A stretch of 20,000 nt of DNA. It comes from Vermamoeba vermiformis. Lineage: Eukaryota. The notes beneath the pieces were generated by a model. That model searched no databases and was not told the DNA's origin. It saw only the letters and a list, made by a program, of their open reading frames with translations. Positions 1 through 16,743 of this stretch are shown one piece after another. The position numbers and the translations under genes are program-made. The stretch covers positions 118,219 through 138,218 of the forward strand of contig JBEWZL010000095.1 in NCBI GenBank assembly GCA_045837725.1, given 5' to 3'. Positions within the stretch are counted from its first letter, which is position 1, and every line of letters starts with the position of its first letter.

Positions 1-20
1 GCAACCAACGCGTTACTTAC

Positions 21-354
21 ACCTGCAGGAACTCATCTATTGGAAACTTGGCGTAAAAATCTTTGAGATCAAGCTTGCTGCCGAGTTTAGCCACCGTTTT
101 AACGTGCTTGAATTTATCGCGCAGTGGCACATCTGATCGCAGGACTGATATGGCCTCTTGCAATTGTGCGGCTGTAATAGTCGTTATTAAATTGTAATAA
201 TAAGTTGAAATTTATTCTCGTCTGATCGAGAGGAATATTCAGAAATTTGCATTCATTGTAGTATATATGATGCATATGTAATTTAAATAATATAAATTGA
301 TCATATTAATATTGTTGGTGTGATTGAGTTGTTGGATGTACCTTCGTCGCTCAT
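21..354 (-). CDS. 5' end of a gene running off the left edge; N-terminus resembles Ral GTPase-activating protein alpha subunit
   Basis: Exon 354-342 (ATG AGC GAC GAA G|gtac) splices in frame to exon 171-21 (tacag|...|gtaagt). Product: MSDEAAQLQEAISVLRSDVPLRDKFKHVKTVAKLGSKLDLKDFYAKFPIDEFLQV. The 'KHVKTV...DLKDFY' pattern recalls the RalGAPalpha N-terminus (LKHLRIV...DLKQFF), from memory only. Confidence 0.45.
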
Positions 355-559
355 TATTGAACAACCGTAATTATAATTGCTGTGTAATTATAGGGCCATG
401 TCCTATGACCAGTACGAGTGACTGTCAATGCACTGGTCGCGTATTAATCAATATATCAATCGTAATTGAACTGATTTTTTTGTCACCGCAAATTTCACTT
501 CAGATTTTTATTGATAAAACGCCTATAATACAACACACTAGGGGCGAGAGACACGCCAC

Positions 560-1634
560 TCATTCGATCGCATTCAACTGCAGTTCGTTCACACTGCGCG
601 AGAGTTGTTCTTCGAGGTCTAGCAGCTCTTGTTTAGCCTCTTCAATCTTCACTTGCGCTAAGGTCAGATCCTGCCCATCAAACTGTCAATAATGGCGCGA
701 CACACTAGTATAATACTCACAGGAGGCAGTTGATGGTAGCCTTTGAGCAGACCGAGCTTGGGCGCAGTTTCTTGTTTGATCCGCACGAGTTCAGTGTGCA
801 TCTGCTTGAGACTCTGATGATACAGCTCAGGTGTGACGCCAGTGCCCTTCAACTGCTCCTTCAGCTTGCCGAGGGTCTGTTCGTACTCCTGGCTCTTGCT
901 CTCGAGGTACTTCAAGTTCTTCAAGCGGTTTTGTACCGTGCTCAGCTGATTCGCTTGTGCCTCTTCGAGCTGCTGCAGCAATCTAACGCAATGCGTGAGT
1001 AGGGATGCTGTGCGACTAATATACTCACTTTTTGGCGTGCGTAAAGTCTTCCAGTGCGGTCTTGCTTTGTGTTTGCAAATAGTTCAGATGTTGCTCGAGG
1101 TCAGTTTTGAAGCGGATCTGCTCTGAATGTTCACTGCGCTGCTGGTATAGGCTCGATACGAGTACTGTAAGAGTGCAGTTGTGTGCTCCGAGCTAAATAC
1201 AACGTTAATTTGACTTATTAACAGCTAATTCATCCACGTACCAAGACAGTCAGATGTGCTAACAGTTCACTCAGCTCAAACACGCGCTGATAAGGTGATT
1301 GATATGTATTGGTATTGCCAGTGGCTATTTTATCGCGCTTCAGTCCCAATCCTTCGAGCAGCTTCTCTTTTCTATTCGCTGCAATAAATCATTAATTTTA
1401 ATTAGATCGCCTCTGTAACTCACCTTCATCTTGATATTCCTGGGCGAGCCTATTGTTGTTATTTATGATGATTTGTTGTTCGTGATTACGTCGCTTGTTC
1501 TTGAGTGCCAGTTCATACAAAGCAGATACAGTTTGATCGTTGATCTCAAATTCTGGCACTGCGCGGTCTTTGAACACCGTTTTCAACCAACTGGTAACTA
1601 CAGTTAGTTTGCTATCATATCCAATCTCTGACAT
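560..1634 (-). CDS. HAUS1: HAUS augmin-like complex subunit 1, 5 exons, about 294 aa
   Basis: Exons 1634-1424, 1378-1242, 1192-1029, 982-721 and 670-560, all GT-AG and in frame. The N-terminal VTSWLKTVFKDRAVPEFEINDQTVSALYEL and C-terminal YHQLPPDLTLAQVKIEEAKQEL match HAUS1 signature segments. Confidence 0.9.
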
Positions 1635-1808
1635 GGTGCTGTGGTGTGATAAATTTAAATTAATGATCAAAGCAGAAAAGGCGCGAAAAATACGGGCCCC
1701 ACGCGAACATTTTCGTGTCGAACAGCGAGTCAATTCTTAGTTCACGATCAACGCGTCAAACAATAACTGTAATACAGTACCAGACCTAATGATCAGCAAG
1801 CAGTTCGG
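1635..1808. promoter_or_regulatory. Probable bidirectional promoter (HAUS1 / kinesin fusion)
   Basis: Divergent start codons are only 174 bp apart. Promoter function is inferred from the geometry. Confidence 0.55.
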
Positions 1809-4800
1809 ATGTTGAAATTAGATGGGCTCTCAAGTCAAGACTCCGCAGTGCGTGTCGTGCTGCGGTTTCGACCAACTGAAAAATCAAGTTCAAATTTTTT
1901 AAAAATAGACAAAGACAAGCAAACAGTGCACATCAGCACCGAACTACCAGCTACGGTAAAAGTCAGTCGGGATCTGCCGATAATTTTCATTATTTTTTTA
2001 AAATCACTCAAAATTAATCGATCCCTACATAGCGATTCAATTACTTTAAAAACTAATATTATTTTATTTTAAGACTCACTCGCGACGTCATTCGATAAGC
2101 ACCACTACCAAAACTGATTTTCATCGTTTTGTATTTGACCGTGTATTCGCAGAGACCGCTACACAAGAAGAAGTACGCATCGCACATATACAATAAGACT
2201 AGGCAGGACACTAACAGTACTGTTGACAGGTGTACAATGAAACTGCCGCGCCCCTCGTGGATGGTGAGTGACACGCAAGACATTTCTTGAGACCAGCGAC
2301 TAATAGCAGGCCATTCATATAGACATCCTGCGCGGATTCAATGCGACTATATTCGCGTACGGCCAGACAGGGTCAGGCAAGACGTACACTATGCAAGGCC
2401 CCTCGATCGAGGACCCCGCGCACCAAGGTCTGTGTCCGCGCCTGATCACACATCTGTTTGATCGCATTGAAGAGATGAAGACCAACAAGGACGTCGAGCT
2501 CATATTGAAAGTGAACTGCATTGAGATCTATCAAGAGCGCATCAACGACCTCTTGGATCGCACGCGTGAAAATTTAAGGCTGCGTCACCACCAAACACGC
2601 GGCTTTTACGTGGAGAAGTGTTCGGAGATCTACGTGAACAGTGCGCGCGATGTGATTGAGCTGATGAAGCGTGGATTTGGCAACAGACGCACGGCCTCGA
2701 CGAACATGAATGCCGAGAGCAGTCGCAGTCACAGCATCTTCATCCTGCACCTGACGCAGCAGCACTTGAACAAAGAGATCAACAGTCGACTCATTTTGAT
2801 TGACTTGGCTGGCTCTGAAAAGGTAGGCAATTTTCTGTGCAGACTTATCTTTGCAATCATTTTTCGTTGGTGGCACGCTTGTTCACTGAACGACGTGTCA
2901 TCTGTATGTAACTCGTAGTATACACCGCTTAGAGGACGATACTGACGTGAGTTTTTTGCGATGGTTATATTTATTACTATAAACAGGTGAGCAAAACAGG
3001 CGCTGAAGGCCAAACACTGGAGGAGGCCAAGACGATCAACAAGTCGCTCCTCACCCTCGGCAACGTCATCAACGCGCTCACTGAAAAGAATGTACGTGCG
3101 AGTCACTGAATGACACCTGTCACTCGAATCACGTGATCTCATTGGTTGTTTGTCACAGACCTTTGTGCCCTACAGAGACAGTGCGCTGACCTTGCTGTTG
3201 AAAGAGTCGCTCGGTGGTAACTCCAAGACGACGCTGATCGTGAACTGTTCGATGGACGCGTACAATGCCAGCGAGACACTCAACACGATGCGATTCGGTC
3301 AGCGCGCCAAGCGTATTGAGAACAAGCCCAAGATCAACATGGAACAGACTGTCGGCGAACTCAAGCAGCAACTGGAAGCCGTGCAGCACGAGTACAGGTC
3401 TGTATTTGACACGTGTCACTCCCCGAGTGCATCGACTGACAGGTTGACAGTGCACTGCTGCTCCACAACAGAATTCTGTCGCTGCTGTCACTCACCAGGG
3501 CTGAGTTCACACCGCGCGAGCACGTGATTCACTGGCCAATCGAGGACTCGGCGGAGAGAACACGTGATCCACGCCCTAGTGCCACTGTCAGTCACGTGCT
3601 CGAGATGCCAATGCCGCCCTGGGCACCGGTCTCGTGGCCCGCGACACCACGTGGCCCTGTCACACCACGTAATGAGCCTGAGCCAGTGTCTATTATTCCG
3701 CCGGACTTGTCACGAGTTATTCCGCCACCACTTGTGATTGGTGCGCTATCAAAGAGCACGTTCGGTGAAGAGAGAGATGTCAAAGTGCGACCTCCGCAGA
3801 TCAGTGCTGCAAATCCGTTCAATCCACCAGGGCTCTCTGCTGCCATGTGGAACGATCACGTGACATTCGACGATACACCCAATGCCACGTGGCAGGATCT
3901 TCGAGAGCAGCCAGATCGAGAATTCAATTCTCCGACAGCAGTGCCAGCACAGATCACGTGTCAAGCACCGCCAATGATGCAGTTTGAGGAAGAAGTGACT
4001 GAACCCGAAGAGGATCTAAAAATAGTGCTAGAACGACGCAACAGTTCGCTAAAAAAGGAAATGGAATCTTTGCAACGAAACAAGTCGAAAGAGGCCGAAG
4101 AATTGCAGGCAAAATTGACAGAACAGCAAAGACTGGTCGAAGAGTTGCAAAAGCAATTACTCTCCGCACGGAGATCTCGTTCACTGATTGGCCACGTGAT
4201 CTACAACGCTTTGCTCGTGGTCTTGGTGGCACTTGTGTTCGCAGCTGGCGTGTATCTCGCGCCAAATATAGATCCTTCGCTCACCTCGTGCAGTGACACG
4301 TCACGTGTGTTTAGTTACGACATCTACTTTGACACATTGGGTCTGACACCTTCAGCCTCAAGTCACGTGGTCAAACAGCGGTATCGAGAGCTCTTGCTGC
4401 AACTGTAAGCTATTTTTAGCCCCCACGTGCTCTTCTAACATGTCTTGTTTAGACATCCGGACAAAAATCCGCACTGCGATGACGCGTGTCATAATCAACT
4501 TCACAACGTGAAATTTTCCTATGACGTGCTGTCACTCGCAAAGTTTCCCAAAGATAGCATTGATGACAAGGCTGTGGAATGTCAATGTGCCACCTGTCCT
4601 GAAGTCCAATGTCCGGAGGCTGTTAAGTGTCCCGAACCCGTCACGTGTCAATGTCCGACTCCCGCGGAGTGCCCCTCAACGACCTCTACGGAGTGTCACT
4701 GTCCACAACTCACATGTCCTGATCCTGTCACGTGTCAATGTCCGGAGTCTGTTAAGTGCCCTGAACCAGTCGCGTGTCAATGTCCGACTCCTACCGAGTG

Positions 4801-6046
4801 TCAATGTCCAGCCCCCGTGGATTGCGACAAGTCACGTGAAGAGTCCCTGGCAGAGCTAAATATAGTGCTGCGCGAGTCACTTGAAAGCTGTCAACGTCAA
4901 GTCAAGCACTGTCAAGAACAGCTCATTCATGAACAAAGTGTCGTACGTGACTTGGAGCTAAAAATAGAACAGTTCCAGCCCACCGTCGTGGTGGTGCAAG
5001 AATCTCGTCCGGAGATCGCAGTGCCCGACTGGAAAGAAGACAGTTCGCTGCAGTGGATGTTGGAAGAGGAGAAGAAGAAGCAGCTCGGACTGATCACCAC
5101 GCACTACCACTTCACGTACTGGCACACTGCCACCGAGCACTCGGACAGACTCGATCACCTCGCTGCTGGACTCAACGACGCACTGAAAGTGAACGCTGAG
5201 TTCCATTCACGAATGCGAGCGAGTGACGGAGAAGACGCGGAGATGACTGCCAAATATGGCATTAACGCTGACCAGCCGTACGTGGTGGCTGAGACAACCA
5301 TAACGATCGTGTCACGTGACGATGAACAGCAGCAACAAATGAAGACTGTCATGACTTTCCCTGGGCCGTTCTCCGACCAAACATTCCAGCAATTATTGCA
5401 CAATTTCCTTAATTGGCAAGCATCGGAACATATCCTGCTCGGAGATTTCGATACATTGCCATGTTTGTCCACAGGAGCACGTGCTCAGCAGTACTGCGTG
5501 ATCATGATGGCAGACACTATGTCGCGCAGCAGTTTTGATCTGGGCTCGCGCATCTTGAAGTACTTGGAACTCACTTCGCAATTCACTGAACGAAGTGTCA
5601 ATCTGCCACCCGACGTCGAGTTTGCATTCCGTCTCATTGACACAGGCCGCAAAGAGAGTCTCTACGACCACATGTCCCGCGATCTCGAGCTCGTGTCCAA
5701 TGCACACATGCAGCTGCATCACCAGCTGATTGTAGTCTCGCTGCACACGGCACAGTTCTGGCAGTACGATCGACCACTCACCTTCCAGCGTGCCACCGAC
5801 TACCCGGCACTGCGCACGTGGTTCAACAAGATTGTGCGCGCGATTGAGCGGGGACAAGACGAGGACAGTGCTGACAAATCGGAGCGAGTGCCCGCAGAGC
5901 CCGCGAAGGTAGATCTGGCGCTGATCGAGTACACACGCCGTCGTCACTCGCCTGTGAGCACAGTGGTCTCGTACGGTGTGACGATAGGCCTCGCAGTCAA
6001 CTTCTTGTTGCGCCTCACTCGCCGTGCCCTGCAATTGCTGGGCTAA
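1809..6046 (+). CDS. Kinesin-1-like motor fused to TM helix, DnaJ domain, Cys-Pro repeats, DNAJC16-like region and C-terminal hydrophobic segment; 8 exons, about 1225 aa
   Basis: Exons 1809-1961, 2074-2172, 2230-2263, 2323-2822, 2987-3091, 3159-3397, 3451-4404 and 4453-6046 total 3678 nt in frame. Motor motifs: [18 protein letters not shown] (P-loop), NAESSRSH (switch I), [15 protein letters not shown] (switch II), [21 protein letters not shown] helix [26 protein letters not shown] at about 4184-4262. J-domain YFDTLGL...[13 protein letters not shown]...YDVLS. Confidence 0.8.
4574..4825 (+). repeat. Cys/Pro-rich coding repeats (CQCP, VKCPEPVxCQCPTP) containing a ~65-nt duplication at 4607 and 4736
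   Basis: caatgtccggag(g/t)ctgttaagtg...gtgtcaatgtccgactcc occurs twice, 129 nt apart. The translation has about 20 Cys in about 85 aa. Confidence 0.85.
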
Positions 6047-6145
6047 GCTCACTTGTAATTAGCTTTGTAAATAGTTTCGAATGGGTTTAATAAATACGCG
6101 TTGAACTCAATCAACAACAAAATTGAACAATAAATACAAGGCAGT

Positions 6146-9137
6146 CTACTTGGAGGATGAGGATGAAGAGGAAGATGACGAGGAGCTCTCTTCGTCCTTG
6201 GTGTGCGTGCTCTGTGCGTGGCCATTGCTCTCCGCGTGCACTTCAGTCTTGAGCTCGGTGGTGACGGGCACAGCTGGCTGGACTGCACTCTTGTCCTCTT
6301 TGTCGCTCTTCTTGTCCTCAGTCTGGGCCTGTGCGTGGTGCTTGTGTTCAGCGACACTCTCGGCCTTGACGTCACTCGTCACAGCCTCGCTGCTCTGTTT
6401 GACCTCGCTGCTCTGTTTGACCTCGCTGCTCTGTTTTATCTCGCTCTTCACTTCAGCACTCACGGGGACTGCAGGACTGGCACTCTTCTTGTCTTTCTTG
6501 TCCTTCTTGTCTTTCTTCTTCACCTCGCGCACGGACTCGCGCTTCTCTTTCTTCTCGGCAGCGTCCACTTTGACTTCAGCTTTCTTCTCTTCCTTGCTCT
6601 CTTTGTCTTTCTTCTTCACCTCGCGCACCGACTCGCGCTTGTCTTTGCGCGGTGAGGCCACGCTGTCGTCTTTCTTCTCCTCGCTCTTCTTGTCCTTCTT
6701 CTTCACTTCACGCACGGACTCGCGCTTCTCTTTGCGCGGTGACTTGCTCTCTTTGTCCTTCACTTCCAAGGTCGCGTCTTGTTTCACAGCGGCCTCCGTC
6801 TTGGCCTCGGTGCTCTTTGTCTCCTTCTTGCTCTTGCTCTTGGGACTCTTGGCACTCTTCTTGTCTTGCTCCTCGTCGCTCTTGTTCAGCTTGTCAGTCT
6901 TGCCTGCAGGACGCGGACTCAGCACTTTGGGCTCCTTCTTGCTCGTGCTGGTGCTGGGCACTGCAGCCACAGACATGGCACGTGCGCGCGTGCTGTTGTC
7001 CTCCTCCGACCACTCCTCCGAGCTGATCGAGTCGCGCTCGTTGGCTGGACGCGTGGGATCGTGCACCAACTTGCGCAACATGAAGTAGCGGAATCGCTTG
7101 GCGTAGTAGTCAGCGCGCACCGTGGAGAGTGTGGCCTCGTCCCAGACTATCTTCTTGAGCAGATTGGCGACCTTCTTCTTGAGCACGTAGGAGGTGAGGC
7201 AGTCGATGATGCCGATGAAGTAGATCTCTTGCTTCTGATCGCTCGGATTCGTGCCCACAAAGCCACCGAGCTCAAACACGTCTTGCACTGGCGCTGCGGT
7301 CTCTTTTTTGGGCTCGTCGTGCGCGGTGTTGTCCGTCTTCGCGTCCTCTTGCTTGCTGGCATCTTTCTTGCTGGCATCTTTCTTGGCCTCGTTGTCGCTC
7401 TTCTTCTCGTCACTCTGCTTGTCCTCTGGCTTCTTGTCCTCAGTCTGAGCAGCATCCTTCTTGTCGTCTGCTTTCTTGTCGTCGTCTTTCTTGTCGCTCG
7501 CGGAGCTCGAGGACGAAGAGGACGAAGAGGAGCTGGATGAACTGCGTGACTTGGTGACAGCTGTCTCGCTCTTGACTTGATTGGTGTTGTTGGGCTGTTC
7601 TGCGCTCGATGTGCTCGAGTGGTGCGTGGCTTCAGGGGACTGCTTGGACGCGTCCTTGGTGCTGTTGTCCTTATGATTGCTGTCCTTATGATTGCCGTCC
7701 TTAGTGTCGTGCACTTGGCGCTCCTGATCCGTGACGTAGTGCACACCGACCAGCAGCGAGTAGTCCATCACGTTGTGCTTCATCAAGAACTGCGCGGCAC
7801 CGTCAGTATTGCACTCCTATATATGCGCCCTAGTGTGTACTTACATCAATGTCTTGATTGAGCTGTTCGTAATAGAACTGCGTCACTTCTGGGGCACTGA
7901 AGTAGATCTGGCGCTGAATCTGGTTGTCTTTCACTGGTCCGCCACCCACTACTGGCGTGTTAGAGCGCTTGGGCTTGCGGCCTTTGAGATCATAGGTCTC
8001 GTCGATAGCTACGCCTGGTGGAAACACGTTCTTGAACACGAGCACCCAGATCTGCTTGGCAGGCGAGTACGTCAAGCGATAGAGGCCCACTACGCGCATG
8101 ATGAAGTTCTTAGGTGCGTCAGTGAGGTACTGGTGATAGTCCTTGAGCATGTCCATCATCACTCCGACTTCAGGGTGCAGCAACGTCTTGAAGAAGTAGT
8201 GCCGATCTTGCGTGCGATAGAACATGGAGCCACTGCGACCTGAAGACTGACTCAACTTCTGATCGGGTGCTGGATCTGCCCACGAAGCCTGTCACACACT
8301 CGTCAGTATATCGTAGCAACGCTATTATGGCAATTTCAATAAACTGCGAGACATGCAACGGTTGACAGATCGTACCAAATAATCGGGGGTTGTAATGCCG
8401 CAGAGACGACGGACATCGCGGAACACATGAGGTGCATAGTCTTTGAGTTGCAAAGCACCCTTTACTCTGTCAAAGAGGTGAGCTAAGAGCGGATGGATCT
8501 GGACAAAAAACATTGCAGTAATTCTAACTTACCCCTGAAACTCTTCGCTGACAGTGTGCGCAAAGTCCTCGCTCTTGACCTCTTTGACTTCATCGTACTT
8601 TTGGGCCTGCAATAATAATAAGCTGAATTAATACCGTTATTTTAATATTGAGCGGGTAGGCATTTGTATAATTAGCCGAGCAGTTGCAATTAATTTACTA
8701 GTAAATATACTCTATATTAATAGCCACAATAAATAACATGACATTAATTAATTAATGGCGCTCTGATCCTTACCGAGTGACGAATGCACAATATAATATC
8801 GCGAATAATTGACATCTTTGAGCGGCGCGTGAATGAAGGCACACACCTATATGAACAATACTAAATAACGAGCACTAATGTCACTGATTAAATATCACTC
8901 GTGGTGCTGTGCAGAACGAGCAGTCAATAACAACGGAGAATTATGTCACGCTGCTTGTACGCGAGGGGCGGCTAGCTGGCACAAAGCTGCGAATTCATGT
9001 TGCTGCAGTGTACTGAGAGTGTAGTGCACTTACTTGTGGCAGTACCATAGCTTTTTTTCTTTTTCATACGGATCAATCCGCTGATCTCGGCGAATCCGCT
9101 TCGCCACAGGGTCCTTGATGACGGTGGTCTTAATCAT
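6146..9137 (-). CDS. Phosphatidylinositol-phosphate kinase (PIP5K/PIP4K family) with a large low-complexity insert and a charged C-terminal tail
   Basis: Motifs: KDYAPHVFRDVRR, SSGRSGSMFYRTQDRHYFFKT, YDLKG, MDYSLLVGVH, YFIGIIDCLT...YAKRF. GT-AG introns join the pieces in frame. The putative first exon 9137-9034 joins in phase 2 to the exon starting at 8846; an alternative ATG lies at 8815. Stop TAG at 6148-6146. Confidence 0.88.
6380..6740 (-). repeat. Coding repeats in the PIP kinase tail: 3x KRESVREVKKKDK and 3x tandem 21-nt (EVKQSSE-like) units
   Basis: On the + strand, ttcttcttcac(c/t)tc(g/a)cgcac(g/c)gactcgcgctt occurs three times (about 6514, 6609, 6696), and ctcgctgctctgttt occurs three times at 21-nt spacing (about 6386-6445). 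Confidence 0.85.
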
Positions 9138-9302
9138 TGGCTATTAACTAGAATTGGACATTATTTCAAAACGACTCGGCATGATGTCTTTTCAAATTAA
9201 GCGATTTTCAAGTGAAATGCCGCGTGTAATTATGACGATCTGCCTCAAGTGAGCACCTCAAAGCTGCACATATTAATCGAAGTGAACATACAGTATTAAA
9301 AT
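9138..9302. promoter_or_regulatory. Probable bidirectional promoter (PIP kinase / YAE1)
   Basis: Divergent ATGs are 165 bp apart; this depends on the 9137 start being correct. Confidence 0.45.
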
Positions 9303-9849
9303 ATGGATGACGATTGGCTCGTAGATGAACAGGCATTAACTTCAGACAACTATCAGCAGTATGTCAGCGATCGAGAATGGAACTCGCTTAAAAATGAATT
9401 TACAAAGGTAATTAAATACAGGACTAACTATCAGGACTAACTGTTTCGTATTATATTCGATACTTCTCGTATAAATTATCTCACTATCAGATCTGACCCT
9501 CTTCCAGGCAGGCTACAGAGAGGGTGTGAAAGAGGGTGCAGATCGTGCGCGCCAAGCAGGGTTTGAAGTCGGATTCGCGCACGGGGGACCCTTGCTGCTG
9601 CACACGGGCTATCAGATTGGCCTGCTCGACACCCTCAAGACATTCTACGCGCGCAGTGACGCACCAGCACTCAGCGAACAGCAGCGCAGTGCCCTCGACG
9701 CACTAGTGGCAGAGCTCGCAGCCCTCGATGATGCGTCCTTGCTCGCTGAAGCAGATGGCGCGAGAACTCAACGTGCGGAGAGAATACAACGCCTCGCTGA
9801 TGAGCTGCAGCTAGGTAGCATTCCGAATGTGAACAGTACGAGCATATAA
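9303..9849 (+). CDS. YAE1: Yae1-family protein (Yae1/Lto1 Fe-S cluster adaptor for ABCE1), 2 exons
   Basis: Exons 9303-9407 and 9508-9849. Product MDDDW...REWNSLKNEFTKAGYREGVKEGADRARQAGFEVGFAHG carries the repeated GxxxG (Yae1_N) motif. Confidence 0.8.
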
Positions 9850-9960
9850 ATAGTATTGCTATTGTCTTCGTGGTCAATAGCGCTGTAAATAAACAAATTA
9901 CAATTCATTCATTTCGCGTGACTTGGACACTACTGCTCGTGACACTAACACCGCTGTTCT

Positions 9961-10685
9961 ATGACTTATAGCACTATCAAGCATCTGCAGAATCGCACTG
10001 GCAAATACAGTGCTGGACGTTTCGATTACTTGCAGCAATTAGTCACCGAGTTCACTGACACGGCAGATCTCGGTAAGTTTCAGCTGTAAAATTAATAGCA
10101 ACGTATTAATAGCATACTAGATGATAAAGTACAGATATTGGCGCACTTGGCGAATTTTGCGTACGATCCAATCAACTACGACCACCTGCTCAAGCTGAAT
10201 GTGCCCGAGCTGTTTCTCGACTGCTTGGAGGAAGACAATGCGCAGCTGATTGAATTCGCTGCGGCTGGACTCTGCAATATGGTGCTCGGTACGTCAGCTG
10301 CGCGTGTTGCCCTTCTCAAACAGCCACTAACCACCAGCCCCCCTCAGAGCCGCGTGTGTTGCAGTGCGTGGTGGAGAGTGACGGCGTGCGACAGTTGATT
10401 GCACTGCTCGCGAGTGAGGTGCTGAACACGGTGTTGAGTGCACTGCTCGCACTCTATTACATCGTCACTGCTCAGCCTGAACTCAAGCCTGGTACGTAGT
10501 GCTGACTTAGATACATCGATCACTATCATACGCCTACTGTCCTATCTTCACTGTATACTCACACTATATACACAGCAATTGCCACGCGCGCAGTGATGCA
10601 AGCGCTGCACAAGTACGCACAGGCCAGTCACACCGCACTGCGCAACACCGCTGCGATAGTGCTGCAGACACTCAGCGAGCAGTGA
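9961..10685 (+). CDS. ARMC7: Armadillo repeat-containing protein 7, 4 exons, 177 aa
   Basis: Exons 9961-10072, 10121-10288, 10348-10491 and 10576-10685. Signature RTGK...[12 protein letters not shown]...[19 protein letters not shown]...LFLDCL...EFAAAGLCN. Confidence 0.92.
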
Positions 10686-11069
10686 GCAGTGCAGAGTGAC
10701 AATAGGCTTATCATCATATACTTATCATATACTGCTGATGATGATGCTGGACCACGTGACGGAGAGTTGTTCCGGATCAAGCTGTTGACGGTACTTGTCT
10801 CGCGCGTCACAGCTCACACGACCACGATGTTAGGTGCCACGCACTAGTGTGGGTATATATGCACATGTACGTAGCATGCTGACGAAAATAAATTTGGGTG
10901 GTCAAGACTGATCCGATCAGAAACAAATTCAGTTCAACACTGAAGAGCACGAAGCAACCTATTTGTATATAACTAATAATAGAGGTTACTTTATATTACT
11001 TAGAGCTAGGCCTGTATCTCCCTTGCTTTAATGTCTGTCTATTGCTTGTTGACTGCGATCCAAAACTAG

Positions 11070-14000
11070 ATGCCATTAAAATCAGCGTTATTTAACTGGA
11101 CCCGGTGGTGCCAAGTATTTATATTACTAGCACTATCGCAGGTCAGTTTGTCAGCTCAATCTCGAGCGACCTGTGAAGGTATGTTTTATTTATTATTATT
11201 AAAATTCCATAATTACTAGATTCTGTCTGCAAGGATAATTTTTCAATTAATGCAAGCATGATAACTAATATTGATAATTAATATGCACCTAGACGGTACG
11301 ACGAGACAGTTCTTTGATCATTTTGTTAATGTCGCCGATCTATCGCCACAACCACAAACAGGCAATTACCGCGTTATTCCCAACTACTTTGTGCATCAGG
11401 TGGGTGCTATAACGTTATCTTACAATAATATACGCATATATACTGCATAATATGACTTTGACGGCTGTGTTACAAGCGAGTACACAGCAGTGAGGTCACA
11501 TCTGCCTCTCATTCGTTGTACACGATGCTAATGCTCGCCTATGCAGACCCATTCACACCCCGAAGTGAAGCGAGCTGATCCCCAGCCTATAGTGTAAGTA
11601 CTGTGCCCTCACGCTGCACGCAGTTCTGATCCACATCCAGGCCCGACAAACACGCCGCGAGTGTCGCTAATCCACACTCTACGCCTCAAGTGCAACTGTT
11701 GCCATATCACCTCTCATTCAACGAGCGGTACGTGACTAATGAGCCACTCTAAGCAGCATATTGACGCATGTGATTTCAGTCCCATCTGCTTGGCCTCGAT
11801 CGAATACATTGAAGTGCTCAATCTCTCTGACAAGGATGAGCTGCATATATTCTCTGTCGCCTCTGAGAGCGCGCACTTCCACGCTTCCTTCAAACACACC
11901 GTGCTGCCCCCGCGCGCGAATCTGTCGATCCCGGTGGTGTTCTTGGCGAAGGTGCTGGGCCCAGCAGAGACGAGTCTCGTGATACAGACCAATCTCGGCG
12001 GCTTCATCTACCAAGTGAGTGGTGTCGGCGTGCCCAATCAGTACGCAGTGGAGCCGCTGGTGGGTGTGAAGGTGTTGGTGCAGCACTGGTACAGCGCACC
12101 GATCACGCTCTACAACCCGACCAGCGACACCCTCGTCGTCAAGGAGGTGTTCACCAGCGGCGGGTTCTTGCACCTCTCACTGCCGGGCAGCGCTGGGCAC
12201 ACCCGTGGACAACAGACGGCTGTGGGAACTGACGCCCTATCAGCGCAAGCAGATCATCAATCTCGACTTTCAAGCGGCCAATGCGGGCAAGTATCAGGGC
12301 TTCATCTACATCAAGACTGATCGCGACATGCTCATCGTGCACGTCGAGGTCACGGTGGTGAAGAGTGCGCTGCAACTCACCGTGGACGAGCTGGACTTTG
12401 GCACACTGACCGCACTGCAGCACCGGCACAGTGCCACCGACCTCACCGCACCACTCACGCGCAGTGTCACACTCACGCTGCTCAACGGTCACGCGCATGC
12501 TGTGCACGTGCACGAACTCACCCTCTCAGCACTGCAGAATGATCCGAATATAGCTGCAAAGATCGATCTAAAAATAGACTTTCACGGCCCCATGGACCTG
12601 GCACCCCTCACATCACGTGACATTGGCACAGTAACATTTGCAGCCAAGGTCGATGGTGTCTACCGCGGAAAATTAGCTGTCAAAACCAATGACACGGCTC
12701 AAGCGCGCATCGAATTGCCTTTTAAGGCGCGTGTTATTGGTGGTCACGTGATCCCCGAGCTCGCGAGCACGACCTTCCCGATCAGCGTCAAAGGTCCCCC
12801 GTTCAGTGCTGTCGTGCAACCGATTCAACTGACCAACAAACTCGCCACGCCATTCACCGTGCTGACTGCAGAGCTCAACGATCCATTGTTCCGCATCACA
12901 CACTTGACACCTGTCAGTTCCGTGCCTGTCAACAGCACGTGGAGTGGTGTCACGGTGAGTTTCACGGCCAATTCCACGCAGAGTCACCGCAGCGAACTGA
13001 TACTGCGCACGAACATCACCACGCTGCACGTGCCCCTCACCTCGTACAGCGGTCGATTGCACTGCGCGGTCACTGGGGCTGCACTGCCGCGCCTCGTGAG
13101 CTTTGGCGTGGTGAGTGTCGGCGAGAGTGCGCACAAGACCCTCACGCTGCACAATCCCAATCCCGTGGCCATCGCCGTGCTGCAAATCAACTCGGATCTT
13201 GCGGGCCTCGCGGTGACACTCGATCACGTGACTGACACGCACGGTGACACGCAGCACCTGTCACGTGTGCTGAGCAGTGGACCGCGTGCCAAGGGTGAGT
13301 TGAAAGAGCCGCTGTTCAGCATTGAGAGCAACAGCACTGCGCAGCTGAGTGTGGCACTGTCCCCGCACCAAGAAGAGCTGCGCGAGGGCCGCATGCACAT
13401 CCGCACCTCACACGAGACACTGCGCCTCAATGTCAGCTATCACGCCCTGCACGGCAGTCTGCGCATTGAGCCGCACAGTCTCACATTCGATGAGCCTGCC
13501 TTCCCCGGCCTGCGCCTGCACCACTCGATCATGGCCCACAACTCATTCGCCCGCGCCATCAACATCTCGCACATGCACGCCAATGATCCGCGCTTCATAC
13601 CCGTGGTCGAGAAGCGAGTGGTGCAGCCCAATGTGATGACCAAAATAGGCTATTTGACCTTCGATCCCGCCCTCGCCCCGCACCACTACATGCTGCACAC
13701 GAGCACTGCCACGAGTGACGCACTGACCAGTGAAGAGCTCGAGGCCCGTCAGAGCTTGGACGCGATGTGGCAGCACGTACTCGACGAGCACAGCGAACAG
13801 ATCACCGCGCAGCTCACCGTGCACACTGACGTTGCAGTCACCCCCGTGCTCGCTGTGCACGCCTCACTCACACGCCCGTCCATTCTGCACAGCACCACAC
13901 TCGACTACGGACTCACGCAGCTGCACACACAGCGCACGCAGTACATTGTGCTGCACAACCCCAGCGATCAGCCAGTGCACGTGCAGCTCTTGCCACTCAC

Positions 14001-16743
14001 GGGCGCAGTGTCCTGGTGGCGCAGAGTGCAGGCGTGGCTGTGGCAGCAAGAGGCCGAGTTCTACTACCCCGCTGAGTGCACCACCACCGCACTGCTCGCA
14101 CCGCACCGACAAGTCAAGCTCGGTCCACTCATCTACGTGCCCCATCACCTCGGTGTCGACGAGATCACCGTCACTGTGCGCAACAATCTCACCGTGTACG
14201 AACAGATCAAAGTGATTGGCCAGGGTGGTTCAGGACACCTCACCCTGCACCAGGGTCACGGACACAGCGCTGCTGTCACACCTGCCACTGCTGTCGTGCT
14301 GCACTTGGACACCAAACAACTTGCACGCTGCGCGCGTGGTAGCACGAGTGGCATCAATGTCACGCACTCGTTCCAGCTCGTCAATGATGGCACATTGCCA
14401 CTCAAAGTTGATGCACTGGGAATCGATGCGGACACGTGCGAGACGGAAGACTTCAAGCTGCACAACTGCAAGCCCTTCTCACTGTCCCCCACACAGACAC
14501 ACAACCTCACCGTGACATTCACACCCGACTTCAGTGCTGCCACTGTGCGCCGCGACTTGGTGCTGTTCACCGATCACGGCACGTACTCCTTCCCACTCGT
14601 CGCGCACATGCCACCAGCAGAGGTGCAGCTCTGTGCTGAAGTGCAGGCCCCGCACTCCGCGCAAGTAGCACACACAGCGCGCACCCTGTTCATCGCCTTC
14701 TGCTTCTGCATGTTTGTCTTCTTCGTGGTGATCATCGTGCAGGAGTACCGCTATCAGCCACAGGGACCGCGCTACTCGGACAAGAGCGTGCCTGAAGACA
14801 TTGAACAGGACACCAAGCGACCCACCCCCGTGACAACCCCCACCGCGCCAGCACACCTCGCGCACCCCACACCCACTCCTACCACACCGAAATCTCCCTC
14901 GAAGCATACTCGTGACAGACGCGAGACACTCCCCGAACCTGCCCTGACACTGCCGTCGATGACGCTGGAGAGCAGTCACGTGACACCAGCGAGCACACCC
15001 CTGACCACCACGAGCGCGAGTCCGAAGAAAGCAGCAGTCACGCTCAACACGAGTGCTGCGAACACGAACACTGCGAGCACAGCGAACAAGAGCAGAGGGC
15101 GCTCCAACTCCAAGGGTCAGCGCGGCAAGATTGATCCGCAAGCACCCTTCACCATCACCACTGCCGTGCCCGTCACACCCACCACTGAACACAAGCCCAA
15201 GCCTGCCAAGACACGTGCTCACACTGCCCCCGACACCGCTGCGAGTGCTGATGTGACACCTGTCACTCACACGTCACACCTCACCACGCTCATCACACCT
15301 GTCACTGCTGCTGTCACCTCGAGTGTCACTTCACACTCCACTGTCGCGAACACCACTTTGACACCTGTCACTCACACGTCACACCTCACTACCCTCACCA
15401 CACCTGTCACTGCCCCTGTCACTTCGCACACCCCTGAAGTGCCAGTGCCGCACAACACCACCTTGACAGCTGTCACGCCCCTCACGCCAGCCCCCACTGT
15501 CACACCTGTCACCACGACATTGACCGCGCTCGCCACTGACAAGCCAGCCGCACGTCCAGCTACCGAAGATCGACCACCGCGCACCAAGAACGTCAAGCCC
15601 CCCAGCAACAATGTGCCGCCCTATCATCGCGGTCCTAAGCGCAGTCCCAAGAGCTGGGTGCGCAAAGACGAGAAGCAGAACGCTGAAGCCAAGCAAAGTG
15701 CCACCGAGTCCCCCGTGCCAGCAGTGGATGCAGTCAAGAGCGAGGAGCACACCGACACTGCCGATCGATCCAACAACTCCACCACCATTGCCAAAAAAGA
15801 GTACGTCAAGACCTTGTACAAGCCAGCACCGCGCGTGACAGGTGTCAAGACCCCGTCACCGAGTCACTCGCCCGACACGAGCAGCACACGCAGCGAGGGC
15901 AAAGCAGTGCGCAAGAGTCCGCTGCCCGTGAGTCCCATTCTCACCACCACACCGCTCAGTGCCCCGAGTCTGGAGAGTGCAGCGAGTGAGTTCAGCTACC
16001 TTGAGCACTACTACCCCGAGATTGAGGGCACGGAACTCGTCTACAACAGCATTGCCGCACTCACGGGCACGAGTGCCACCAACACCGCCGCGACCTTCAA
16101 CACCAATCTCGCTGCACCGGCACCCAGCTCACCGCACAACCGCAGCACGGTGCGCGATCCGTTCTCGTTCGGTGCCCTCGATCAGCGCATTCACACCGCG
16201 CAGTCACGTGCGCACCCACCCCCGCACGGCACGATTGGTTCAGTGAAGCCACGTGCTTTCGATCCCTGGGACAGACCCATTCTGTTCGATCTCGATGGTG
16301 ACAGCAGTCAGCACGTGGTCTCGCATTCCCCGCCCACCACGCAGTACACGTCACCGCACAGTCCTCCGAGTGACACGTGGACTGACACGCAGCACACCTC
16401 ACCCTCGCTGTTCACTGCACTGCCCCCGCTCTTTGCAGCCCCCTCGCAGCACTCCTTCTTCTCGTCCCCCACCTTCCCGCGCGTGAGCAAGTCGAGTGAT
16501 GACGTCATCACGCCACCCAGACCAGATCCAGCTGTCAATCCACTCTCCACCTCCGTCTCCTCGCTCACCGCCTACAACCCCTTCAACGGTGGCTCGTTGT
16601 TCGCGATGAGTGAGTCGCCCTTCACGCCCTTCGCGCCCTATCCGCACACCTCGTCCTTCGGCTCCTTCAACTTGCAGAACTTGTCGCAGCTGCGCAATGG
16701 GGACAGCACGCACGAGCCCCACCCTGCTGCGGATGATGCGTAG
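11070..16743 (+). CDS. TMEM131: TMEM131-like type I membrane protein (signal peptide, PapD/Ig-like luminal domains, TM helix, Thr/Pro/Ser-rich tail), with an apparent +1 frameshift near 12186-12204
   Basis: Signal-peptide exon 11070-11178, three small exons, then coding sequence from about 11780. HFHASF...VVFLAKVLG...GGFIYQVSGVGVPNQY...YNPTSDTLVVKEVFTSGGFLHLSLP...LWELTPY and RNNLT match TMEM131. TM helix LFIAFCFCMFVFFVVIIV at about 14686-14739. Confidence 0.85.
15254..15425 (+). repeat. Direct repeat of about 55 nt (period 105 nt) in the TMEM131 tail, encoding TPVTHTSHLTTLxTPVTA
   Basis: tgacacctgtcactcacacgtcacacctcac...cacacctgtcactgc starts at 15254 and again at 15359. Confidence 0.85.

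What the first reader, a model, noticed from the sequence alone, without database searches (positions are those of the whole stretch)
1809..6046. Membrane-anchored kinesin fused to a J-domain co-chaperone (kinesin-TM-DnaJ-Cys repeat-DNAJC16-like-TM)
Seen in sequence: the separate ORFs join through two canonical short introns. Intron 3398-3450 (AG|gtctgt...ctgac...gacag|T) puts the motor neck ([13 protein letters not shown]) in frame with the 3524 ORF. Intron 4405-4452 (CT|gtaagc...ctaac...tttag|A) rebuilds the J-domain motif LQL-HPDKN. The product is a kinesin-1-like motor, short coil, Pro-rich linker, coiled coil, 25-aa TM helix, complete J-domain, Cys-Pro repeats, coiled coil, a globular region and a terminal hydrophobic helix. 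Established: kinesin-1 normally has a long stalk and reaches membranes through adaptors, and HPD J-domains activate Hsp70. Inference: a cytosolic motor plus type-II topology places the J-domain in the ER or organelle lumen, directly coupling microtubule movement or tethering to luminal BiP/Hsp70. I know of no described protein with this architecture.
Basis: partly seen in the sequence, partly recalled or inferred. Interest (0 to 1): 0.9.

Follow-up and report, generated by a model that had tools for sequence, protein, structure and literature searches.

The report
Membrane-anchored kinesin fused to J-domain
One spliced gene of an unidentified microbial eukaryote encodes a kinesin motor joined through a membrane-spanning helix to an Hsp70 co-chaperone (J) domain, a combination I could not find described, which could tie microtubule-based movement of an organelle membrane to chaperone action inside it.

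Summary
Eight exons (1809-6046, + strand) give one 1225-aa ORF. Spliced contigs of public runs join 3397>3451 (one contig of X3) and 4404>4453 (X1, X3), and four further introns. A syntenic orthologous locus from an independent assembly (L001) has all seven introns at the same codon positions. There the unspliced intron-6 reading stops two codons after the donor. The segment right after intron 6 aligns gap-free, has dN/dS 0.26 and has no conserved Met before aa 552. It is therefore coding and must be read from the kinesin exons.

The product has a kinesin-1-like motor and neck, a Pro-rich linker, a coiled coil and a strong TM helix. Then come a J-domain with HPD, variable Cys-Pro repeats, a coiled coil, an orphan about 290-aa domain and a conserved C-terminal hydrophobic helix.

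The "DNAJC16-like" label is not supported: no thioredoxin or other family was found. A luminal J-domain is a sound but untested inference. Six literature searches found no such fusion.

The parts
1809..1961 (+). Exon 1 (ATG 1809-1811; aa 1-51), N-terminal strand of the motor
   Evidence: It starts at the first in-frame ATG after a stop. Joint 1961>2074 is seen in X1 and X2 contigs. An X1 contig reaches back to about 1768. The ortholog starts at the same Met.
2074..2172 (+). Exon 2 (aa 52-84)
   Evidence: Joints 1961>2074 and 2172>2230; same position in L001.
2230..2263 (+). Exon 3 (34 nt, aa 85-95 plus 1 nt)
   Evidence: Joints 2172>2230 (X1, X2, X3) and 2263>2323 (X1, X3).
2323..2822 (+). Exon 4, motor core with P-loop (2361-2384), switch I (2718-2735) and switch II (2802-2819)
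   Evidence: Pfam Kinesin PF00225, E 8.2e-58, profile 70-237. Best solved relatives are kinesin-1 (1goj, 6.2e-45).
2823..2986 (+). Intron 4 (164 nt), not covered by RNA contigs; its last about 49 nt are conserved
   Evidence: GT..AG. Same position in L001. The 3' end is nearly identical to L001 while the rest has diverged.
2987..3091 (+). Exon 5 (motor)
   Evidence: Pfam Kinesin, E 4.8e-09, profile 239-272; joint 3091>3159.
3159..3397 (+). Exon 6: end of motor, neck linker, start of neck coil
   Evidence: Pfam Kinesin, E 2.1e-18, profile 276-327. Gap-free match through the neck linker into the neck coil of kinesin-1 (1goj, 3e-25; the top 16 solved hits are all kinesin-1).
3398..3450 (+). Intron 6 (53 nt, phase 2), the junction that fuses motor and tail
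   Evidence: Joint reported as 3393>3447, 'cut +4', which equals 3397>3451, GT..AG, in one X3 contig. Unspliced reading stops at 3525-3527. In L001 the unspliced reading stops 2 codons after the donor. Same phase and position in L001.
3451..4404 (+). Exon 7: neck coil end, Pro-rich linker (3506-3973), coiled coil (4028-4183), TM1 (4190-4261), first half of J-domain (from 4307)
   Evidence: Tiled by contigs of X1, X2 and X3. 317 codons align gap-free with L001, dN/dS 0.17. TM1 Kyte-Doolittle peak is 2.62. Flank charge is +4 on the N side and -1 on the C side.
4405..4452 (+). Intron 7 (48 nt, phase 2), splits the J-domain just before HPD
   Evidence: Joint 4404>4453, GT..AG, in X1 and X3 contigs; same position in L001.
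4453..6046 (+). Exon 8: HPD (4454-4462) and second half of J-domain (to 4552), Cys-Pro repeats (4580-4825), coiled coil (4868-4957), orphan conserved domain (4994-5863), TM2 (5954-6016), stop 6044-6046
   Evidence: The second J half aligns with solved J-domains from HPD on. DNA direct repeats with 18/24-nt spacing. Four relatives at 62-81% identity. TM2 Kyte-Doolittle peak is 1.73. 35 of the 40 listed differences among runs fall on third codon positions (my count).

Best explanation
This is one protein-coding gene. Its 1225-aa product has several parts in order. First comes an N-terminal kinesin-1-like motor with an intact P-loop, switch I, switch II, neck linker and short neck coil. Then come a Pro-rich linker of about 155 aa, a coiled coil of about 50 aa and a strongly hydrophobic helix (aa 624-647). 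These are followed by a J-domain with HPD, a variable Cys-Pro repeat stretch, a second coiled coil, a lineage-restricted domain of about 290 aa and a conserved C-terminal hydrophobic helix (aa 1196-1216).

Shown here: the gene structure, splicing at 6 of 7 introns, transcription across the whole tail, and purifying selection on every segment.

Inferred: the motor must be cytosolic. The first helix therefore acts as an N-in signal anchor. The J-domain, Cys-rich repeats and orphan domain then lie on the non-cytosolic side, and the last helix returns the short basic C-terminus to the cytosol.

The most likely compartment is the ER or nuclear envelope, because that is the endomembrane lumen known to hold an Hsp70 (BiP). 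In this reading the motor, probably dimeric and plus-end directed, pulls or tethers that membrane along microtubules without any adaptor. The J-domain recruits and activates luminal Hsp70 at the same site.
For: Gene and splicing:
- The ORF is open over 1225 codons with 7 GT..AG introns.
- Spliced contigs from three runs of three studies show 6 of 7 junctions, including 3397>3451 and 4404>4453.
- Contigs tile exon 7 from 3447 to 4404.

Ortholog:
- L001 is collinear with the window from 5 to 7244, with HAUS1 upstream and PIP5K downstream.
- It has the same 7 intron positions and a 1199-aa ORF.
- Its unspliced intron 6 gives a stop after 2 codons.

Coding of the junction-proximal tail:
- Codons 1-175 of exon 7 are 73% identical with 0 gaps.
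- Differences at codon positions 1/2/3 are 30/29/67, and dN/dS is 0.26.
- No Met before aa 552 is shared by the two species.

Selection per region: motor 0.040, J-domain 0.028, linker 0.245, orphan domain 0.156.

Motor:
- PF00225 is matched on three exons.
- The nearest solved motors are kinesin-1, gap-free through the neck linker.

J-domain:
- 13 of 16 solved hits of the first half carry DnaJ/Hsp40/Sis1/dnj names (best E 0.019).
- 2 of 3 hits of the second half carry DnaJ names.
- In DNAJB8 (2dmx) the halves fall on residues 11-35 and 38-67. The two residues made by the splice fill the gap in register.

Topology:
- There are only two hydrophobic segments.
- TM1 flank charges are +4 on the N side and -1 or -2 on the C side in both species.
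- 26 Cys lie between the helices against 5 in the N-terminal 619 aa.

Precedents:
- ERdj1 has a luminal J-domain and a cytosolic domain, and is described as relaying luminal BiP availability to ribosomes (PMC9147092, passages).
- Dictyostelium Kif9 is a kinesin anchored by its own TM helix (PMC11816917, passages).
Against: - Junction 3397>3451 is shown by a single low-depth contig (X3, depth 3.5). It has only partial support from one X2 contig that starts 7 letters before 3447.
- No read or contig spans from motor to J-domain, so a single full-length mRNA is inferred, not seen.
- The runs are labelled 'RNA?' by guess.
- Intron 4 and exon parts 2606-3058 have no contig cover.
- X2 depth is about 2-4 times higher over the 3' part. 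This could be 3' bias or a second, internal transcription start.
- The joined J-domain could not be given to Pfam. Its first half alone scores 13.6 bits against a cut-off of 27.8, and its second half gave no Pfam hit.
- Topology, compartment and Hsp70 partner are untested.
- TM2 is only moderately hydrophobic (1.73) with basic residues on both sides.
- N-glycosylation sequons are uninformative: 0 observed against 1.65 expected, P 0.16.
Confidence: 0.55

Rival explanations
1. There are two separate proteins. The kinesin ends shortly after the motor, through intron 6 retention or polyadenylation. An independent transcript starting inside exon 7 encodes a stand-alone membrane J-protein beginning at the conserved Met-Met (aa 552). 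The open frame between them would not be translated as part of the kinesin.
For: - Met552-Met553 are conserved in L001 and sit just before the coiled coil and TM helix.
- X2 depth is higher over the 3' part: contigs 6.4-13.6 against 2.8-6.7.
- A cluster of CACGTG sites begins at intron 5 in both species and could mark internal regulatory DNA.
- No single molecule spanning the whole gene was seen.
Against: - The X3 contig joins 3397>3451.
- The 175 codons between the junction and Met552 are conserved without a gap, with dN/dS 0.26.
- Neither species has a shared start codon in that stretch.
- The retained-intron reading is not conserved: 43 extra codons in the window against 2 in L001.
- X3 depth is flat across the gene.

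An extra short isoform could coexist with the fused one. That would not remove the fusion.
Confidence: 0.05
2. The fusion is real but the topology or compartment differs. One possibility is that the first helix is not a simple N-in span. Another is that the protein sits in a different membrane (mitochondrial or plastid outer membrane, plasma membrane, vesicles). The J-domain would then be cytosolic, extracellular or in a space without Hsp70, and would act on cytosolic Hsp70 or have a non-chaperone role.
For: - No targeting signal was identified.
- There are 0 sequons in 547 residues between the helices (not significant).
- TM2 is weakly hydrophobic.
- No experiment bears on location.
Against: - One helix of 24 residues at Kyte-Doolittle 2.62 lies between motor and J-domain, with +4 on the motor side. 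This makes opposite sides the default.
- 21 Cys in the repeats and two invariant Cys in the orphan domain suit an oxidising lumen.
- From general knowledge, the intermembrane space and the cell exterior lack Hsp70.
Confidence: 0.2
3. The protein is a nuclear-envelope device rather than a general ER mover. An outer-nuclear-membrane kinesin would position nuclei, couple the centrosome to the nucleus (as proposed for Dictyostelium Kif9), or act in nuclear congression and fusion. In yeast nuclear fusion also needs luminal BiP, J-proteins and the luminal Cys-rich, coiled-coil membrane protein Kar5.
For: - Kif9 is the only natural TM-anchored kinesin my searches returned, and it sits in the nuclear envelope (PMC11816917 and PMC12539209, passages).
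- Yeast karyogamy combines microtubule-based congression with Kar2/BiP, Sec63 and Jem1 (PMC2199862, abstract; PMC4291462, passages).
- The Kar5 family layout is a luminal Cys-rich domain, coiled coils and C-terminal TM helices. This resembles the order Cys-rich, coiled coil, domain, TM seen here.
Against: - No Tht1/Kar5 (PF04163) match appears at E up to 10 in any of the 5 tail sequences.
- The Cys-Pro repeats are variable low-complexity units, not a fixed six-Cys domain.
- Kif9 is a kinesin-13 with an internal motor, whereas this is an N-terminal kinesin-1-like motor.
- There are no expression data by life-cycle stage.
Confidence: 0.12
4. The fusion is an assembly chimera or a decaying pseudogene with no fused product.
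For: None beyond the rarity of the architecture.
Against: - An independent assembly (L001) has the same collinear locus and intact ORF.
- All segments are under purifying selection.
- RNA contigs from three studies match at 99% or more.
Confidence: 0.02

Closest known systems
Kinesin-1 heavy chain (KHC/KIF5; fungal Nkin, PDB 1goj)
   Same: - N-terminal motor.
- Best solved matches for the motor core (6.2e-45) and for helix alpha-6, neck linker and neck coil start (3e-25).
- Both alignments are gap-free.
- Best database motors at about 48-54% identity include proteins named kinesin heavy chain.
   Different: - No long stalk.
- No IAK-type tail motif (absent; the motif itself is recalled).
- The tail is unrelated.
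- Cargo attachment would be by its own TM helix instead of light chains or adaptors.
Dictyostelium Kif9 (kinesin with its own TM anchor in the nuclear envelope)
   Same: A kinesin that is itself an integral membrane protein (PMC11816917, passages; PMC12539209, one passage).
   Different: - Kif9 is a kinesin-13 with an internal motor.
- It has a TM helix of about 23 residues at the very C-terminus.
- It has no luminal domain.
- Here the motor is N-terminal and kinesin-1-like, and about 550 residues including a J-domain follow the TM helix.
ERdj1/DNAJC1 and Sec63/ERdj2 (ER membrane J-proteins with luminal J-domain and cytosolic effector domain)
   Same: A J-domain sits on the luminal side and a functional domain sits on the cytosolic side of one membrane protein. 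ERdj1 is described as relaying luminal BiP availability to ribosomes (PMC9147092, passages).
   Different: - In those proteins the cytosolic domain binds ribosomes or the translocon, not microtubules.
- The orientation is reversed relative to ERdj1, which has its J-domain at the N-terminus.
- No sequence relation beyond the J-domain was found.
DNAJC16/ERdj8
   Same: The order J-domain, luminal domain, C-terminal TM helix.
   Different: - ERdj8 has a signal peptide and a thioredoxin-like domain (PMC7401821, passages).
- Neither is found here.
Yeast karyogamy set: Kar3 (kinesin), Kar2/BiP with Jem1/Sec63 (J-proteins), Kar5 (luminal Cys-rich coiled-coil membrane protein)
   Same: The three kinds of activity are present in one chain here: a microtubule motor, a luminal J-domain, and a luminal Cys-rich region plus coiled coil plus C-terminal TM helix.
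   Different: - No homology to Kar5/Tht1 was detected.
- Kar3 is a minus-end kinesin-14 (recalled).
- The likeness is of layout only.

Membership tests
Kinesin superfamily (Pfam PF00225) | Motor-domain profile match above the curated cut-off | tested here: met
   Exons 4, 5 and 6 score 196.4, 36.1 and 66.9 bits against a cut-off of 29.3, covering profile positions 70-327. Exons 1-3 (profile 1-69) were not scanned.
Kinesin superfamily (Pfam PF00225) | P-loop, switch I and switch II motifs intact | tested here: met
   GQTGSGKT at aa 109, SSRSHS at aa 228 and DLAGSE at aa 256 in the spliced translation. The motif definitions are recalled.
Kinesin-1 (KHC/KIF5) | Motor and neck linker closest to kinesin-1 | tested here: met
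   The 27 best solved hits of exon 4 and the 16 best of exon 6 are kinesin-1, ahead of KIF15, KIF1A and KIF3. This is a ranking of hits, not a phylogeny.
Kinesin-1 (KHC/KIF5) | Long coiled-coil stalk and regulatory/cargo tail (light-chain binding, IAK motif) | tested here: not met
   After a neck of about 40 aa comes a Pro-rich linker (16.7% Pro). IAK is absent in both orthologs. The tail has no relative outside 4 fragments. The feature list is recalled.
J-domain proteins (Pfam PF00226) | J-domain profile match above the cut-off | tested here: inconclusive
   The domain is split by intron 7. The first half alone scores 13.6 bits against 27.8 (E 0.076, profile 2-27). The second half gave no hit. 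The joined sequence could not be handed to the tool.
J-domain proteins (Pfam PF00226) | HPD tripeptide between helices II and III, with both halves collinear with solved J-domains | tested here: met
   HPD is at aa 696-698. The halves align to DNAJB8 (2dmx) at 11-35 and 38-67. dN/dS is 0.028.
J-domain proteins (Pfam PF00226) | Stimulates Hsp70 ATPase | not testable with these tools
   This needs an enzyme assay with the organism's BiP/Hsp70.
DNAJC16/ERdj8 | Thioredoxin-like domain after the J-domain | tested here: not met
   No thioredoxin family appears at E up to 10 in any of 5 tail sequences. There is no solved relative by sequence or by profile.
DNAJC16/ERdj8 | N-terminal signal peptide, type I topology | tested here: not met
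   The J-domain is preceded by about 620 residues of kinesin and linker and by an internal hydrophobic helix.
Kar5/Tht1/GEX1 (Pfam PF04163) | Conserved six-Cys domain / Tht1 profile | tested here: not met
   No PF04163 hit. The Cys-Pro stretch varies in unit number between relatives: 18 gap columns, and a 24-nt deletion in X3.
TM-anchored kinesins (Dictyostelium Kif9 type) | Hydrophobic membrane-spanning helix in the same chain as the motor | tested here: met
   aa 624-647, Kyte-Doolittle 2.62, 85% identical in L001. Membrane insertion itself was not tested.
TM-anchored kinesins (Dictyostelium Kif9 type) | Kinesin-13 internal motor, TM at the extreme C-terminus | tested here: not met
   The motor is N-terminal and kinesin-1-like. 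The TM helix is internal.

The most novel reading that the evidence does not exclude
The protein is a trans-membrane coupler in which motor and chaperone cofactor act on each other across the bilayer. Occupancy of the luminal J-domain and orphan domain by BiP or clients would switch the cytosolic kinesin on or off, much as ERdj1 is described to relay BiP availability to ribosomes. Alternatively, the motor would deliver a BiP-activating site to where microtubule plus ends meet the ER or nuclear envelope. In its boldest form it is a single-chain nuclear congression and fusion device, uniting what yeast divides among a kinesin, the J-proteins Jem1/Sec63 with BiP, and Kar5.
Probability: 0.12. Interest if true: 0.88.

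Novelty: new variant of a known kind. Interest (0 to 1): 0.62.

Why it matters
As far as I know, kinesins reach membranes through adaptors. The only natural self-anchored kinesin my searches returned is Dictyostelium Kif9.

Here a kinesin-1-like motor appears to be an integral membrane protein. Its far-side portion carries a J-domain as tightly conserved as the motor itself (dN/dS 0.028 against 0.040).

If the topology holds, it offers three things:
- A minimal, adaptor-free system for studying how a motor moves a fluid membrane.
- A natural case for asking whether luminal chaperone state and cytoskeletal positioning of the ER or nuclear envelope are coupled.
- An orphan luminal domain of about 290 aa to characterise.

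It also shows that public protein collections hold this gene only as bacterial-style ORF fragments, so such architectures in unsampled protists are invisible to protein-level searches.

Tried and rejected
Tools that gave nothing or were unavailable:
- The window's own genome is not held.
The one accepted job failed. No fold search was therefore possible.
- Complex prediction was run on two copies of the coiled coil plus TM1 (aa 180-275 of exon 7). After repeated full queues, the verdict was 'no answer', score 0.01. This is no evidence either way.

Searches for relatives of the tail:
- The 'longer' search scored none of 5746 candidates.
- Genome and viral contig scans confirmed none of 325 and none of 159 pattern matches.
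- P0006 (E 3.7e-05) matches only the Cys-Pro stretch and is a DUF7901/GEVED protein. I rejected it as a relative.
- The top-scoring motor hits from Saprolegniales (P0007-9, P0026) are proteins with two tandem motors, which inflates their score. They are not orthologs.

Other negative results:
- Sequon depletion in the putative lumen is not significant (P 0.16).
- My crude heptad score flags aa 570-621 and 834-863 but not the neck.
- Tandem Repeats Finder found nothing in 4500-4900, but the repeat finder did.
- Rfam found 0 families and ARAGORN 0 tRNAs in the window.
- The conserved 3' end of intron 4 has no significant fold (z -0.17).
- My first guess for the exon-1 donor (1955|1956) was replaced by the RNA-supported 1961|1962.
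- The last paper search, on CACGTG in coding regions, returned 0 papers.

Full report
**1. What is in the sequence**

The window is eukaryotic nuclear DNA with short GT..AG introns. Stop-to-stop ORFs on the + strand between 1773 and 6046 lie in changing frames. I joined them at canonical splice sites: 1809-1961, 2074-2172, 2230-2263, 2323-2822, 2987-3091, 3159-3397, 3451-4404 and 4453-6046. This gives an uninterrupted ORF of 1225 codons.

- 3398-3450 (53 nt, phase 2) joins ...VQHEYS to ALLLHNR...
- 4405-4452 (48 nt, phase 2) rebuilds ...LLLQL-HPDKN...

Read without splicing, the kinesin frame runs 43 more codons to a stop at 3525-3527.

**2. Transcript evidence**

One search found public runs that hold the stretch. 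I laid four of the 23 listed runs: X1, X2 and X3 (assembled contigs, three studies, kind 'RNA?' by guess) and X21 (raw RNA reads).

The contigs lack introns at GT..AG borders, so they derive from spliced RNA. The joints were:
- 1961>2074 (X1, X2)
- 2172>2230 (X1, X2, X3)
- 2263>2323 (X1, X3)
- 3091>3159 (X1, X2)
- 3397>3451 (X3 only: one contig, depth 3.5, 37 letters on the shorter side)
- 4404>4453 (X1, X3)

One X2 contig lies on 3447-3594 from its 8th letter, which fits the same junction but is too short to count. Intron 4 and positions 2606-3058 have no contig cover in X1-X3.

Listed contig pieces tile exon 7:
- 3447-3594 (X2)
- 3581-3731 (X1)
- 3635-3900, 3877-4255 and 4257-4404>4453-5074 (X3)
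- 3791-4277 (X1)

None of the 23 listed pieces (18 more were not shown) lies within either reader intron. No molecule spans the whole gene, so the full-length mRNA is inferred.

X2 contigs are deeper over the 3' part (6.4-13.6) than over the motor part (2.8-6.7), while X3 is flat. This may be 3' bias or a hint of an extra internal start.

X21 reads are 90-99% alike (0 of 28 at 99% or more), so they come from a relative. Of the 40 differences listed for all runs, all in exon 8, 35 fall on third codon positions. All 16 rows that involve X21 do so (my count with the frame).

**3. An orthologous locus from an independent assembly**

The 530-aa translation of exon 8 has very few relatives. The 'near' search found 5 proteins, one being the window's own ORF. 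The 'longer' search found none. A search of 1.84 billion representatives found 3, of which one matches only the Cys-Pro repeats.

These entries are bacterial-style ORF calls. The window's own entry begins at an internal GTG read as Met. Nobody has deposited a spliced model.

A scan of metagenome contigs returned one locus, L001. It is collinear with the window from 5 to 7244. HAUS1 lies upstream on the other strand and PIP5K downstream.

tblastn of the spliced model finds every exon in order. A gene model built the same way has seven GT..AG introns at the same codon positions and a 1199-aa ORF.

At intron 6 the frame switch is conserved, while the intron itself differs in length (70 nt against 53 nt) and in sequence. 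The unspliced reading stops two codons after the donor.

**4. The stretch behind the junction is coding and belongs to the kinesin**

Exon 7 aligns with L001 over 317 codons without a single gap. Differences at codon positions 1/2/3 are 52/37/128, and dN/dS is 0.17.

For the first 175 codons, which precede the only conserved Met-Met (aa 552-553):
- Identity is 73% with no gap.
- Differences at codon positions 1/2/3 are 30/29/67, and dN/dS is 0.26.
- Met codons in this stretch are not shared between the species.

A conserved reading frame that starts at the acceptor and has no conserved start codon can only be translated from the upstream kinesin exons.

Every segment is under purifying selection: motor 0.040, neck 0.064, Pro-rich linker 0.245, coiled coil 0.080, TM1 region 0.186, J-domain 0.028, Cys-Pro repeats 0.177, second coil 0.235, orphan domain 0.156, C-terminal part 0.164.

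**5. The parts**

Motor:
- Pfam Kinesin matches exons 4, 5 and 6 above cut-off, covering profile positions 70-327.
- The P-loop, switch I and switch II are intact.
- The best solved relatives of the core and of the helix-6/neck-linker/neck-coil exon are kinesin-1 heavy chains, aligned without gaps (1goj at 6.2e-45 and 3e-25). KIF15, KIF1A and KIF3 follow.
- Among the 120 best of 1721 database motors, identity peaks at about 54%, several are named kinesin heavy chain, and none carries PF00226.
- The four top-scoring Saprolegniales proteins have two tandem motors and are not orthologs.
- There is no long stalk and no IAK motif.
- I call it a kinesin-1-like motor, not a kinesin-1.

Linker and membrane helix:
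- aa 396-551 are 16.7% Pro.
- A crude heptad score marks aa 570-621 as coiled coil. Weak Pfam hits to coiled-coil families cover the same place.
- Only two hydrophobic segments exist: aa 624-647 (Kyte-Doolittle 2.62) and aa 1196-1216 (1.73).
- TM1 has +4 on its N-side flank and -1 (window) or -2 (L001) on its C-side flank. TM2 has basic residues on both sides.

J-domain:
- It is split by intron 7, so each half was tested alone.
- The first half gives a sub-threshold Pfam DnaJ hit (13.6 bits, profile 2-27).
- In the PDB search of the first half, 13 of 16 hits bear DnaJ/Hsp40/Sis1/dnj names (best E 0.019).
- The second half gives 3 hits, 2 of them named DnaJ, aligned from HPDKNP onward.
- In DNAJB8 (2dmx) the halves map to 11-35 and 38-67. 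The splice therefore restores one J-domain in register.
- The joined domain could not be submitted to Pfam.

Tail:
- The Cys-Pro stretch (aa 738-819; 21% Cys, 19% Pro) is built of DNA repeats spaced 18 or 24 nt apart, plus a 129-nt duplication.
- Its unit number varies between relatives, and one X3 contig lacks 24 nt.
- The region of about 290 aa at 876-1165 is 77% identical in L001 and 62-81% in the four fragments, with two invariant Cys.
- That region has no Pfam family at E up to 10 in any of 5 members. It has no solved relative by sequence or profile and no relative in genome or viral contig scans.
- The last 40 residues, including TM2, are the best conserved part of the tail at 95%.

**6. 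How it most likely works**

Shown: there is one gene, it is spliced and expressed, and every segment is conserved.

Inferred: a kinesin motor works in the cytosol. One strongly hydrophobic 24-residue helix with a positive N-side flank separates it from the J-domain. The J-domain, Cys-rich repeats and orphan domain should therefore lie on the other side. TM2 would bring the short basic C-terminus back to the cytosol.

The Cys count fits an oxidising lumen: 26 between the helices against 5 in the N-terminal 619 aa. By general knowledge, the endomembrane lumen that holds an Hsp70 is the ER and nuclear envelope.

I therefore read the protein as an adaptor-free, probably dimeric, plus-end-directed motor. 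It would drag or tether ER or nuclear-envelope membrane along microtubules and carry a BiP-activating site on the luminal face.

Whether motor and J-domain influence each other is open. ERdj1, whose luminal J-domain and cytosolic ribosome-binding domain are described as relaying BiP availability, is a precedent for such relays (PMC9147092, passages).

**7. Comparison with what is known, and novelty**

- A self-anchored kinesin exists in Dictyostelium. Kif9 is a kinesin-13 with a C-terminal TM helix in the nuclear envelope (PMC11816917, passages; PMC12539209, one passage).
- DNAJC16/ERdj8 is signal peptide-J-thioredoxin-like-TM (PMC7401821, passages).
- Yeast nuclear fusion needs microtubule-driven congression, luminal BiP with Sec63 and Jem1, and Kar5. 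Kar5 has a luminal Cys-rich domain, coiled coils and C-terminal TM helices (PMC2199862, abstract; PMC2140214, abstract; PMC4291462, passages).
- The tail here resembles that layout, but no Tht1/Kar5 profile match exists.

Literature searches found no natural kinesin-J-domain fusion:
- 1 paper, irrelevant on reading.
- 2 papers; 8 papers, 4 listed. Only the listings were read.
- 175 papers, 15 listed.
- 46 papers, 20 listed. The four kinesin-DnaJ phrases have 0 occurrences in those listed.
- 1 paper, on Kif9.

Supplements were closed. I could not query domain-architecture databases, so the novelty claim is limited to these searches and to the absence of PF00226 among the 120 nearest motors.

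I rate it a new variant of known kinds (self-anchored kinesin; transmembrane J-protein).

**8. What could not be done**

The fold of the orphan domain is unknown.
- The Atlas, earlier findings and the organism's genome were unavailable.
- The organism was not identified.

Noticed in passing
window 3130-5820 (19 sites), 12505-16374 (15 sites), 17784-19803 (8 sites); L001 6764-9433: The palindrome CACGTG is strongly and locally enriched.
- Window: 44 sites against 11.35 +/- 3.06 expected.
- L001: 19 against 4.83 +/- 2.12.
- By segment: 19 against 2.12 in 3092-6046, 15 against 5.5 in the TMEM131-like gene, and 8 against 2.1 in the Miro-like gene. It is at or below expectation in the HAUS1, motor, PIP5K and 8301-12000 segments.
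- In this gene's CDS: 16 against 3.88 +/- 1.60 under synonymous-codon shuffles, with 0 of 1000 shuffles reaching 16.
- In both species there are no sites in exons 1-6 or introns 1-4, but sites occur in introns 5 and 6.
- 6 of 10 exon-7 sites are shared with L001 (binomial P 0.014).
- TCACGTGA occurs 9 times against 0.79 expected.

The cause is unknown. It could be regulatory DNA, an RNA-level signal in genes for membrane proteins, or something else.
   Followed up: partly
window 2938-2986 (3' end of intron 4); L001 6590-6638: The last ~49 nt of intron 4 are nearly identical between the two species, while the rest of the intron has diverged. The stretch holds CTGAC followed by GTGAGT. It has no significant RNA fold (z -0.17). 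RNA contigs do not cover this intron.
   Followed up: partly
window 4580-4825: The Cys-Pro repeat region is length-polymorphic.
- One X3 contig lacks 24 nt at 4774.
- Relatives differ by whole units.
- The DNA shows repeats spaced 18 or 24 nt apart, and a 129-nt duplication at 88% identity.
   Followed up: yes
window 1955-1962; L001 5624-5625: Two GT donors lie 6 nt apart at the end of exon 1. The RNA contigs use the second one (1961|1962). L001 has only the first, so its protein lacks two residues there.
   Followed up: yes
window 667-1736 (-), 6146-8291 (-), 9475-9846 (+), 12070-16743 (+), 17472-19870 (+): The neighbouring genes are:
- HAUS1 (augmin subunit), divergent from the kinesin gene with about 170 nt between the start codons.
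- A PIP5K with a long Lys/Glu/Ser-rich repeat region (repeat families at 6289-7447).
- A protein with a Yae1_N domain.
- A TMEM131-like protein with a long Thr/Pro-rich tail.
- A Miro-like GTPase (Ras, EF_assoc_1, EF_assoc_2, EF-hand) with a C-terminal hydrophobic helix.
   Followed up: partly
window 4508-6046 (P0001) and relatives P0002-P0005: Public protein collections hold this gene only as bacterial-style ORF fragments. The window's own entry starts at an internal GTG read as Met. Protein-level searches therefore cannot see the fused architecture.
   Followed up: yes
window 3800-6000: In run X2, contig depth over the 3' part is about 2-4 times that over the motor part. In X3 it is flat. 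This could be 3' bias or an additional internal transcription start upstream of Met552.
   Followed up: no
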